Assembly (NCBI RefSeq): GCF_055900595.2
Contig: NZ_CM148325.1
DNA length: 64,000 nucleotides
Direction: 5' to 3' (one strand)
Part shown: positions 4,334 to 4,405 of the stretch, one piece after another
Layout of the letters: every line of letters begins with the position of its first letter
Numbering within the stretch: position 1 is the stretch's first letter
Notes under the pieces: generated by a model
Seen by the model: the letters and a program-made list of their open reading frames with translations, nothing else
The model's database searches: none
What the model was told of the DNA's origin: nothing
Program-made: the position numbers and the translations under genes

Positions 4334-4350
4334 AATTGGTAGGGCCAATT
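4334..4350. promoter_or_regulatory. Inverted repeat AATTGG-N5-CCAATT upstream of lldP; candidate LldR operator
   Basis: Palindrome aattggtagggccaatt about 200 bp upstream of the lldP start; GntR-family operators are typically short palindromes. Confidence 0.35.
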
Positions 4351-4370
4351 TGGAGTGAGGGAGATGTCTG

Positions 4371-4405
4371 TAAAGAAAAGGGCAATTCCCATCAGGGAAT
4401 TGCCC
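4371..4405 (-). terminator. Intrinsic terminator downstream of the adhesin gene
   Basis: Perfect 11-bp inverted repeat gggcaattccc/gggaattgccc with a 4-nt loop, followed on the minus strand by a U-rich run (uuuucuuua). Confidence 0.6.

What the first reader, a model, noticed from the sequence alone, without database searches (positions are those of the whole stretch)
4334..4405. Palindromes in the lldP upstream region: candidate LldR operator and an adjacent terminator
aattggtagggccaatt (4334..4350) is a 6-5-6 inverted repeat of the kind bound by GntR/FadR-family regulators such as LldR. Next to it, the perfect 11-bp inverted repeat at 4380..4405 with a minus-strand U-tail looks like the adhesin terminator, insulating lldP from read-through from the upstream island.
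Basis: inference. Interest (0 to 1): 0.35.

Follow-up and report, generated by a model that had tools for sequence, protein, structure and literature searches.

The report
Known LldR operator and upstream terminator
Both palindromes are real, but they are already-characterised parts of the E. coli L-lactate operon control region: the published LldR operator O1, and an experimentally validated transcription terminator that here ends the upstream adhesin gene.

Summary

**Operator.** Window 4334-4350 (AATTGGTAGGGCCAATT) is the exact reverse complement of the published 17-bp LldR operator O1 of E. coli lldPRD. It is also a reported PdhR box. That spacing is 125-126 bp in all 30 enterobacterial loci long enough to examine.

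**Terminator.** The hairpin at 4380-4405 has a UUUUCUUU tail on the minus strand. It is the orthologue of the K-12 "yibL terminator", for which a 2025 paper reports Term-seq mapping and single-round in vitro termination. Across 7 hairpin alleles, 7 of 8 non-Watson-Crick positions are G·U on the minus strand but C·A on the plus strand, so the hairpin acts as minus-strand RNA. In this strain, and in about two thirds of complete E. coli genomes, the gene it follows is the EhaG/UpaG-type trimeric adhesin. K-12 has lost that gene.

**Side result.** Rfam's STnc380 "sRNA" model is this same operator-plus-terminator stretch read on the opposite strand. Its source table records no sequencing reads.

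Interest is low.

The parts
4334..4350 (.). LldR operator O1 (AATTGGTAGGGCCAATT; on the lldP strand AATTGGCCCTACCAATT). It is also a reported PdhR box.
   Evidence: 17/17 identity to the published sequence. 12/14 match to the LldR-box consensus AAnTGGTCnGACCAnTT. Invariant in 8 E. coli alleles apart from one terminal T>C. Found exactly, at the lldP locus, in Citrobacter, Kosakonia, Klebsiella, Enterobacter, Pluralibacter and other Escherichia.
4208..4224 (.). LldR operator O2 (AAGTGGCACTGCCAATT).
   Evidence: Exact match to the second LldR box listed for lldP in PMC10272880 Table 1. Found as repeat D2/I1 and as the only 1-mismatch motif hit. It lies 126 bp (27 loci) or 125 bp (3 loci) from O1 in all 30 loci with enough sequence.
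4245..4279 (-). Probable lldPRD core promoter: -35 TTGCCA at 4279-4274, weak -10 AACTAT at 4256-4251, transcription start near 4245.
   Evidence: Inference only. If O1 spans -105 to -89 and O2 spans +22 to +38 (my recollection of Aguilera et al. 2008, which is not held in the library), then +1 falls at about 4245 and both operators fit exactly. PMC8689689 places the -35, the -10 and the ArcA site between O1 and O2. The consensus scan finds no strong sigma-70 promoter here, which fits an activator-dependent promoter.
4378..4407 (-). Stem-loop of an intrinsic (Rho-independent) terminator. Minus-strand RNA: GAGGGCAAUUCCC-UGAU-GGGAAUUGCCCUU.
   Evidence: Terminator scan: 13 pairs, 7 of them G-C, loop of 4. 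Hairpin alone -20.5 kcal/mol. z = -5.0. The K-12 allele was validated by Term-seq and in vitro transcription. G·U versus C·A strand asymmetry and compensatory changes.
4372..4379 (-). U-tract UUUUCUUU. Predicted RNA 3' end at about 4373.
   Evidence: Sequence. In the yibL template of PMC12207403 the marked end is GCCCTTTTCT*T*T, which corresponds to window 4373. The tail is conserved in all 13 adhesin-type sequences.
4426..4520 (-). Two REP elements (a BIME-like pair, about 4426-4466 and about 4487-4520) between the adhesin stop codon and the terminator hairpin.
   Evidence: Sub-threshold Rfam naRNA4 (REP-derived) hit at 4426-4466. Inverted repeats I2 and I6. This 501-bp query hits a median of 33 places per E. 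coli genome. REP copy number is 0, about 1 or 2 in different E. coli strains, while the hairpin stays.
4552..9129 (-). EhaG/UpaG-type trimeric autotransporter adhesin gene, whose transcript the hairpin terminates. The stop codon TAA is at 4554-4552, 146 nt before the stem.
   Evidence: Pfam YadA_stalk, YadA_head and YadA_anchor. RefSeq annotation in a genome whose 501-bp junction segment (4100-4600) is 100% identical, and 'ehaG' in others.
517..4135 (-). lldP (2480-4135), lldR (1704-2480) and lldD (517-1707): the operon controlled by O1 and O2.
   Evidence: RefSeq annotation of the genome matching the junction segment at 100% identity. ORFs. LldR has GntR and FCD domains. It is 98% identical to K-12 LldR, with residues 1-120 identical.

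Best explanation
The 416-bp gap between the adhesin gene and lldP (both on the minus strand) holds two adjoining, already-characterised control elements.

**1. An intrinsic terminator.** The stem-loop is at 4378-4407 and the U-tract at 4379-4372, so RNA ends at about 4373. It stops transcripts coming from the upstream gene 23 bp before the lldPRD regulatory region begins. In this strain the upstream gene is the EhaG/UpaG-type adhesin. In K-12 it is yibL.

**2. The LldR operator pair.** O1 is at 4334-4350 and O2 at 4208-4224, 126 bp apart (about 12 helical turns), bracketing the lldPRD promoter.

According to the published model, LldR dimers on O1 and O2 interact without lactate and loop out the promoter, repressing it. 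With L-lactate, O2 is released and LldR at O1 activates transcription. PdhR can also occupy O1, and ArcA represses between the operators.

**Shown here:** sequence identity to the published elements, conservation, spacing, and the strand of the RNA hairpin.

**Taken from the literature on K-12:** LldR and PdhR binding, looping, the mapped 3' end and in vitro termination.

**Inferred:** that both elements work the same way in this strain, and that the terminator insulates lldP from adhesin read-through.
For: - **O1 and O2 match the published boxes exactly**.
- **The regulator is unchanged where it matters.** LldR's N-terminal 120 residues, which include the GntR DNA-binding domain, are identical to K-12.
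- **The spacing is conserved.** O1-O2 is 125-126 bp in 30 of 30 loci from six or more genera.
- **O1 and O2 are nearly invariant** in E. coli alleles whose flanks differ by about 9%.
- **The terminator is picked up by the scan** with a U-tail on the minus strand only.
- **The K-12 allele is validated.** GGGCAATTCTCTGATGAGGATTGCCC-TTTTCT*T*T is the yibL terminator reported from Term-seq and confirmed in vitro.
- **The pairing is selected on the minus strand.** In 7 alleles, 7 of 8 non-Watson-Crick stem positions are G·U on the minus strand and C·A on the plus strand. The hairpin alone is 4-8 kcal/mol more stable on the minus strand in most imperfect alleles (1.2 kcal/mol in E. albertii). C-G to U-A and TTCCC/GGGAA to TGGCA/TGCCA are compensatory changes.
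- **REP copy number varies but the hairpin stays.** In strain MRY15-131 it sits about 30 nt after the adhesin stop codon.
- **The architecture is general.** Genera with yibL directly upstream have a different GC-rich hairpin in the same position next to O1.
Against: - No binding, transcript-end or read-through data exist for this strain or for an adhesin-bearing strain.
- The terminator evidence comes from K-12, where the upstream gene is yibL and the stem differs at 3 positions.
- The in vivo termination efficiency is given only in a figure that I could not read, so the degree of insulation is unknown.
- The primary footprinting paper (Aguilera et al. 2008) is not held. Operator positions relative to the transcription start come from my memory.
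- The U-tract is interrupted by a C.
Confidence: 0.93

Rival explanations
1. The palindrome at 4334-4350 works mainly, or additionally, as a PdhR (pyruvate-sensing GntR/FadR-family) operator. In that case lldPRD responds to pyruvate as well as lactate. This adds to the LldR reading rather than replacing it.
For: PMC7660256 lists AATTGGccctACCAATT between yibL and lldP as a PdhR box (13/14 to its consensus) under a genomic-SELEX peak. It reports 3.3-fold higher lldPRD mRNA in a pdhR mutant.
Against: The LldR SELEX signal at this site is the strongest in the genome (intensity 62.9). The operon encodes LldR itself. The paired O2 at a conserved 126 bp fits the LldR looping model. No PdhR data exist for this strain.
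Confidence: 0.55
2. The stretch 4309-4415 encodes a plus-strand small RNA, the homologue of Salmonella STnc380, antisense to the adhesin 3' end and the lldP upstream region. On this reading the two palindromes are its structural elements.
For: Rfam RF02055 STnc380 aligns end to end on the plus strand at 34.3 bits, E = 4e-5 for the small search.
Against: - The score is far below the family's gathering score of 60.
- The source table (Sittka et al. 2008, supplement) lists STnc380 as a class V candidate between STM3691 and lldP. It has 0 reads in both sequencing libraries and only 'np' in the Northern column.
- The plus strand has no T-run after the hairpin.
- Stem substitutions give C·A mismatches on the plus strand but G·U pairs on the minus strand.
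- The conserved blocks of the model are exactly O1 and the terminator.
Confidence: 0.03
3. The 4380-4405 palindrome acts as double-stranded DNA, either as a binding site for a dimeric protein or as a REP-like repeat, and not as an RNA terminator.
For: In this window the palindrome is perfect on both strands. REP elements lie next to it.
Against: - A DNA palindrome would be symmetric in its substitutions, but the alleles show a one-strand G·U bias.
- The loop length and the adjacent U-tract are conserved.
- Termination at this hairpin was shown in vitro with RNA polymerase alone.
- Among the aligned E. coli alleles REP copy number varies from 0 to 2 while the hairpin is kept in every one.
Confidence: 0.03
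4. Both palindromes are chance inverted repeats with no function.
For: Perfect 6-5-6 repeats occur at the chance rate in this window: 14 observed against about 16-17 expected.
Against: The 17-mer is identical to the published operator. Its position and spacing are conserved across genera. An 11-bp hairpin is expected 0.14 times per window. The K-12 orthologue has been tested experimentally.
Confidence: 0.01

Closest known systems
LldR operators O1 and O2 of the E. coli K-12 lldPRD promoter (Aguilera et al. 2008; LldR box AAnTGGTCnGACCAnTT, PMC10272880)
   Same: Both 17-mers are identical. The 126-bp spacing is the same, as is the position upstream of lldP-lldR-lldD. The LldR DNA-binding domain is identical.
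   Different: Only the strain background differs. The intergenic region is about 9% diverged from K-12 outside the operators, and the next gene upstream is the adhesin rather than yibL.
The yibL intrinsic terminator of E. coli K-12 (TERMITe paper, PMC12207403)
   Same: It is the orthologous hairpin at the same distance from O1, with the same UGAU loop and UUUUCUUUAC tail, on the same strand as lldP.
   Different: The window allele has a fully Watson-Crick stem. It differs at three stem positions: one compensatory C-G/U-A pair and one U-A/U·G pair. It follows the adhesin gene plus two REPs, whereas in K-12 the sadB-like and adhesin genes are deleted and yibL is the upstream gene.
Rfam RF02055 STnc380 (a predicted Salmonella sRNA between STM3691/sadA and lldP)
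   Same: It is the homologous intergenic stretch. The model consensus contains AAUUGGUAGGGCCAAUU and a GGGCAAU...AUUGCCC hairpin.
   Different: The score is below the gathering threshold (34 versus 60). The model is on the strand opposite to the one supported here. The candidate has no expression evidence in its source table. It is most simply a DNA operator plus a terminator, not an sRNA.
PdhR box (AATTGGTnnnACCAATT-type operators of the FadR subfamily of GntR regulators)
   Same: O1 is listed as a 13/14 PdhR box with a SELEX peak.
   Different: Here the site is paired with O2 and belongs to the operon that encodes LldR. PdhR binding would be cross-talk, not the primary control.

Membership tests
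LldR operator (FadR-subfamily GntR box) of lldPRD | 17-bp palindromic box matching AAnTGGTCnGACCAnTT and identical to the published O1 sequence | tested here: met
   17/17 to AATTGGCCCTACCAATT (as reverse complement). 12/14 to the consensus.
LldR operator (FadR-subfamily GntR box) of lldPRD | A second operator (O2) phased with O1 to allow looping | tested here: met
   AAGTGGCACTGCCAATT at 4208-4224, 126 bp from O1. The spacing is 125-126 bp in 30 of 30 related loci.
LldR operator (FadR-subfamily GntR box) of lldPRD | Position upstream of an lldP-lldR-lldD operon that encodes a GntR/FCD regulator | tested here: met
   Gene order from the RefSeq annotation of the genome matching the junction segment at 100% identity, and from ORFs. 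GntR and FCD domains. 98% identity to K-12 LldR.
LldR operator (FadR-subfamily GntR box) of lldPRD | Physical binding of LldR, and lactate-dependent regulation through the site | not testable with these tools
   Reported for the identical K-12 sequence (gel shift and SELEX in PMC10272880; footprinting cited to Aguilera et al. 2008). Not measured for this strain.
Intrinsic (Rho-independent) terminator | GC-rich stem-loop immediately followed by a U-tract on the transcribed strand | tested here: met
   13-pair stem with 7 G-C pairs, 4-nt loop and tail UUUUCUUU on the minus strand. No T-run on the plus strand.
Intrinsic (Rho-independent) terminator | Lies downstream of, and on the same strand as, a gene end | tested here: met
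   146 nt after the adhesin stop codon, with two REPs in between. About 30 nt after the stop codon in a REP-free allele.
Intrinsic (Rho-independent) terminator | Pairing kept by evolution at the RNA level | tested here: met
   7 alleles. 7 of 8 non-Watson-Crick positions are G·U on the minus strand. There are compensatory double changes within Escherichia and between the Escherichia and Citrobacter types. The sample is small, and counting was done by script because MAFFT mis-placed the loop gap.
Intrinsic (Rho-independent) terminator | RNA 3' ends map to the U-tract, and RNA polymerase alone terminates there | not testable with these tools
   Reported for the K-12 allele (PMC12207403, text and supplement file 2). 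Not measured for the window allele or for adhesin transcripts.
Rfam RF02055 STnc380 sRNA | Score at or above the family's gathering threshold (60 bits) | tested here: not met
   34.3 bits.
Rfam RF02055 STnc380 sRNA | Evidence of an expressed plus-strand RNA | tested here: inconclusive
   No expression data can be generated here. The source table shows 0 reads and 'np'. The strand asymmetry of stem substitutions argues against the plus strand.

The most novel reading that the evidence does not exclude
A third, degenerate LldR/PdhR-like box (AATTGGTAGTGCGAATA, 10220-10236; 9/14 to the LldR consensus) lies about 130 bp upstream of the sadB-like/adhesin operon. It could tie adhesin expression to lactate or pyruvate sensing. 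Such a link could never have been seen in K-12 SELEX experiments, because K-12 lacks this region. A related possibility is that residual read-through past the terminator, or LldR at O1 acting as a roadblock 23 bp beyond the RNA 3' end, couples adhesin and lldP expression.
Probability: 0.05. Interest if true: 0.45.

Novelty: already known. Interest (0 to 1): 0.08.

Why it matters
It matters little for discovery, because both elements are already described for E. coli K-12.

The practical value is in annotation:
- It fixes O1, O2 and the terminator in an adhesin-bearing strain.
- It shows that the K-12 "yibL terminator" is ancestrally the terminator of the EhaG/UpaG/SadA-type adhesin gene.
- It documents that the 126-bp operator spacing is kept across Enterobacteriaceae.
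- It flags that the Rfam family STnc380 probably models a protein-binding operator plus a terminator on the wrong strand, not an sRNA.

Tried and rejected
- **Rfam scan**. It gave only sub-threshold hits: STnc380, and naRNA4 which is REP-derived. STnc380 was rejected as an sRNA after I found its source entry and the strand asymmetry.
- **Sigma-70 scan**. It found no consensus lldP promoter, so the promoter coordinates in this report are inference.
- **Aguilera et al. 2008** (PMC2293229) is not held. Three biosensor papers describe O1 and O2 but give no sequences. The sequences came from PMC10272880, PMC3582500 and PMC7660256.
- **A literature search for 'STnc380'** only hit STnc3800.
- **MAFFT alignments of the hairpins** mis-placed the 1-nt loop gap of the Citrobacter sequences. 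I therefore did not run the count of structure pairs on them and tallied the pairs by script instead.
- **The LldR-like box at 10220-10236.** It is 9/14 to the consensus, its right half is broken (GCGA instead of ACCA/GCCA), and one allele also breaks the left half (AATGGG). About 4 such 2-mismatch hits are expected per window. I judged it probably chance.
- **The E. coli termination-efficiency table** of PMC12207403 is not among the held supplement text.

Full report
**Context**

The left end of the window is the E. coli lldPRD region, with every gene on the minus strand:
- lldD at 517-1707
- lldR at 1704-2480
- lldP at 2480-4135
- a 416-bp gap
- a YadA-type trimeric autotransporter adhesin at 4552-9129
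- a 227-aa gene at 9407-10090, which RefSeq calls DUF3251
- yibL

. The 501-bp segment 4100-4600 is 100% identical to E. coli Z0117EC0005 (NZ_CP098223). In related genomes the adhesin is annotated ehaG. On the transcribed strand the order is therefore: adhesin stop codon (4554-4552), two REP elements, hairpin, O1, promoter, O2, lldP.

**Checking the observation**

AATTGG-TAGGG-CCAATT lies at 4334-4350. A perfect 11-bp inverted repeat lies at 4380-4390 and 4395-4405, extendable to 12-13 pairs, with TTTTCTTT following it on the minus strand.

A 6-5-6 repeat is not significant on its own. The window has 14, against about 16-17 expected. The specific motif, however, occurs once. Its only 1-mismatch relative is 126 bp away at 4208-4224.

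Hairpins with perfect 11-bp arms are expected 0.14 times per window. The minus-strand fold has z = -5.0.

**The operator**

The 17-mer is the reverse complement of AATTGGCCCTACCAATT. Three papers give that sequence for this site:
- PMC10272880 (genomic SELEX for LldR) lists it as the first LldR box of the yibL/lldP spacer. That spacer is the strongest peak in the genome. The same table lists AAgTGGcactgCCAaTT as the second box, and the authors state that both agree with the two sites of Aguilera et al. 2008.
- PMC3582500 cites the same 17-mer as the sequence LldR requires.
- PMC7660256 lists it as a 13/14 PdhR box with a SELEX peak, and reports 3.3-fold derepression of lldPRD in a pdhR mutant.

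The second box is present exactly at 4208-4224.

LldR in this window has GntR and FCD domains. It is 98% identical to K-12 LldR, and all four differences lie after residue 120. The same DNA specificity is therefore expected.

The published model, as summarised in PMC5412874 and PMC8689689, runs as follows. LldR dimers on O1 and O2 interact and loop the promoter out in the absence of lactate. With lactate, O2 is vacated and LldR at O1 activates. The -35, the -10 and the ArcA site lie between the operators.

From my memory of Aguilera et al. 2008 (not held), O1 spans -105 to -89 and O2 spans +22 to +38. Both fit at once if +1 is near 4245. This is inference, not a tool result.

**Conservation of the operator pair**

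An exact-match scan of one genome per species found O1 at the lldP locus in Citrobacter, Kosakonia, Klebsiella oxytoca and K. grimontii, Enterobacter, Pluralibacter, Entomohabitans and several Escherichia species. It also gave unrelated chance hits in cyanobacteria, Bacteroidota and others.

In all 30 loci with enough sequence, the best O2-like box lies 126 bp (27 loci) or 125 bp (3 loci) from O1. That is about 12 helical turns, as a looping mechanism requires.

Among eight E. coli alleles that differ by about 9% overall, O1 and O2 each show a single substitution, both in the same strain.

**The hairpin**

The terminator scan reports it as the only terminator-like site in 3900-4900, on the minus strand.

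The decisive evidence is published. PMC12207403 selected an intrinsic terminator "downstream of yibL" from E. coli Term-seq data and confirmed it by single-round in vitro transcription. The template printed in its supplement ends ...CTAAGGGCAATTCTCTGATGAGGATTGCCCTTTTCT*T*TACCAGACATCTCC..., with the 3' end marked in the U-tract. This is the K-12 allele of the window hairpin on the lldP-sense strand. The marked end corresponds to window position of about 4373, which is 23 bp before O1.

**Which strand the hairpin works on**

I compared 13 adhesin-type sequences, which give 7 distinct hairpin alleles from E. coli, E. albertii, Citrobacter youngae and C. braakii.
- Of 8 stem positions that are not Watson-Crick, 7 are G·U on the minus strand and therefore C·A on the plus strand.
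- The hairpin alone is 4-8 kcal/mol more stable as minus-strand RNA in most of the imperfect alleles. The difference is 1.2 kcal/mol in E. albertii.
- Window versus K-12 shows a compensatory C-G to U-A change plus a U-A to U·G change.
- The Escherichia and Citrobacter/Salmonella types differ by compensatory blocks (TTCCC/GGGAA versus TGGCA/TGCCA).
- The UUUUCUUUAC tail is kept.

This pattern fits an RNA hairpin on the adhesin/lldP strand. It does not fit a DNA-level palindrome or a plus-strand RNA.

**Which gene the hairpin terminates**

In this strain the upstream gene is the adhesin. The stop codon lies 146 nt before the stem, with two REPs in between. REP number varies among E. coli alleles from none (MRY15-131, hairpin about 30 nt after the stop codon), to a partial copy, to two. 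The hairpin is constant.

K-12 lacks the sadB-like and adhesin genes. Its yibL stop codon is joined to the distal REP, so the same hairpin now follows yibL.

The adhesin-lldP junction is present in 3614 of 5426 complete E. coli genomes. The same arrangement is seen in C. youngae ATCC 29220. In Salmonella the STnc380 candidate lies between STM3691 and lldP. The "island" is therefore the common and probably ancestral state, and K-12 is the deletion.

Genera in which yibL directly precedes lldP carry a different GC-rich hairpin in the equivalent place, 5-20 bp from O1. A terminator abutting O1 is thus a general feature of this locus. That it insulates lldP is a reasonable inference, but I could not quantify it.

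**STnc380**

Rfam RF02055 aligns full-length on the plus strand at 4309-4415 with 34 bits, against a gathering score of 60. Its consensus contains O1 and the hairpin.

In the supplement of Sittka et al. 2008, STnc380 is a class V candidate between STM3691 and lldP, antisense to both. It has 0 reads in both libraries and 'np' in the Northern column. I did not resolve that abbreviation.

Taken with the strand asymmetry, the family is most simply a conserved operator plus terminator that was modelled as an sRNA.

**Verdict**

Both elements are already known. Interest is low.

The only loose thread is a degenerate LldR-like box upstream of the adhesin operon at 10220-10236. It is probably chance.

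Noticed in passing
window 4208-4224: The second LldR operator O2 (AAGTGGCACTGCCAATT) lies 126 bp from O1 and was not in the finding. The spacing is 125-126 bp in 30 of 30 enterobacterial loci examined.
   Followed up: yes
window 4309-4415 (+): There is a sub-threshold match to Rfam STnc380 (34 bits versus 60). The family consensus is O1 plus the terminator hairpin. Its source entry (Sittka et al. 2008 supplement) is an antisense prediction with 0 reads. The family is probably not an sRNA.
   Followed up: yes
window 4426-4520: Two REP elements lie between the adhesin stop codon and the terminator. Copy number is 0, about 1 or 2 in different E. coli strains. The K-12 deletion of the sadB-like and adhesin genes ends inside this REP region.
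   Followed up: partly
window 4317-4333: AGGTCAGATAAGCGAAG, directly abutting O1 on the promoter side, is 88% identical to part of the REP at 4493-4509 (repeat D1). It looks like a REP remnant. It is invariant in the E. coli alleles aligned and absent in Citrobacter.
   Followed up: no
window 10220-10236: An LldR/PdhR-like box, AATTGGTAGTGCGAATA (2 mismatches to the O1 arms, 9/14 to the LldR consensus), lies about 130 bp upstream of the sadB-like/adhesin operon. It is partly kept in divergent alleles (AATTGGTTGTGCGAATA, AATGGGTTGTGCGAATA). About 4 such hits are expected by chance in the window.
   Followed up: partly
window 10091-10665: The AT-rich spacer between yibL and the sadB-like gene is a rare allele. 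Only 23 of 5426 E. coli genomes match at 99% or more. Most genomes that carry the region are 77-79% identical, which is far more diverged than the flanking core genes.
   Followed up: partly
window 10597-10620: yibL in this strain has its own downstream inverted repeat (CTCCTGC...GCAGGAG) with no T-run on the yibL strand. It is unrelated to the hairpin that follows yibL in K-12.
   Followed up: no
window 9407-10090 (-): RefSeq annotates this 227-aa protein as DUF3251 (SadB-like by position). It gave no Pfam hit at E <= 0.001 in the copy searched.
   Followed up: no
window 48482-48525, 62416-62455, 57814-57855, 23075-23118, 21729-21768: These are other perfect inverted repeats with arms of 11 bp or more. 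Several have flanking T-runs and look like further intrinsic terminators, for example AAAAAGCCTGCCATCTGGCAGGCTTTTTT near 62418 and GCCCGGTCA...TGACCGGGCTTTT near 57816.
   Followed up: no
L004 (CALXDF010000207.1): A contig filed as an 'uncultured Oscillospiraceae' MAG carries the Escherichia-type O1, hairpin and REP sequence nearly identical to E. coli. It is likely a mis-binned Escherichia contig.
   Followed up: no
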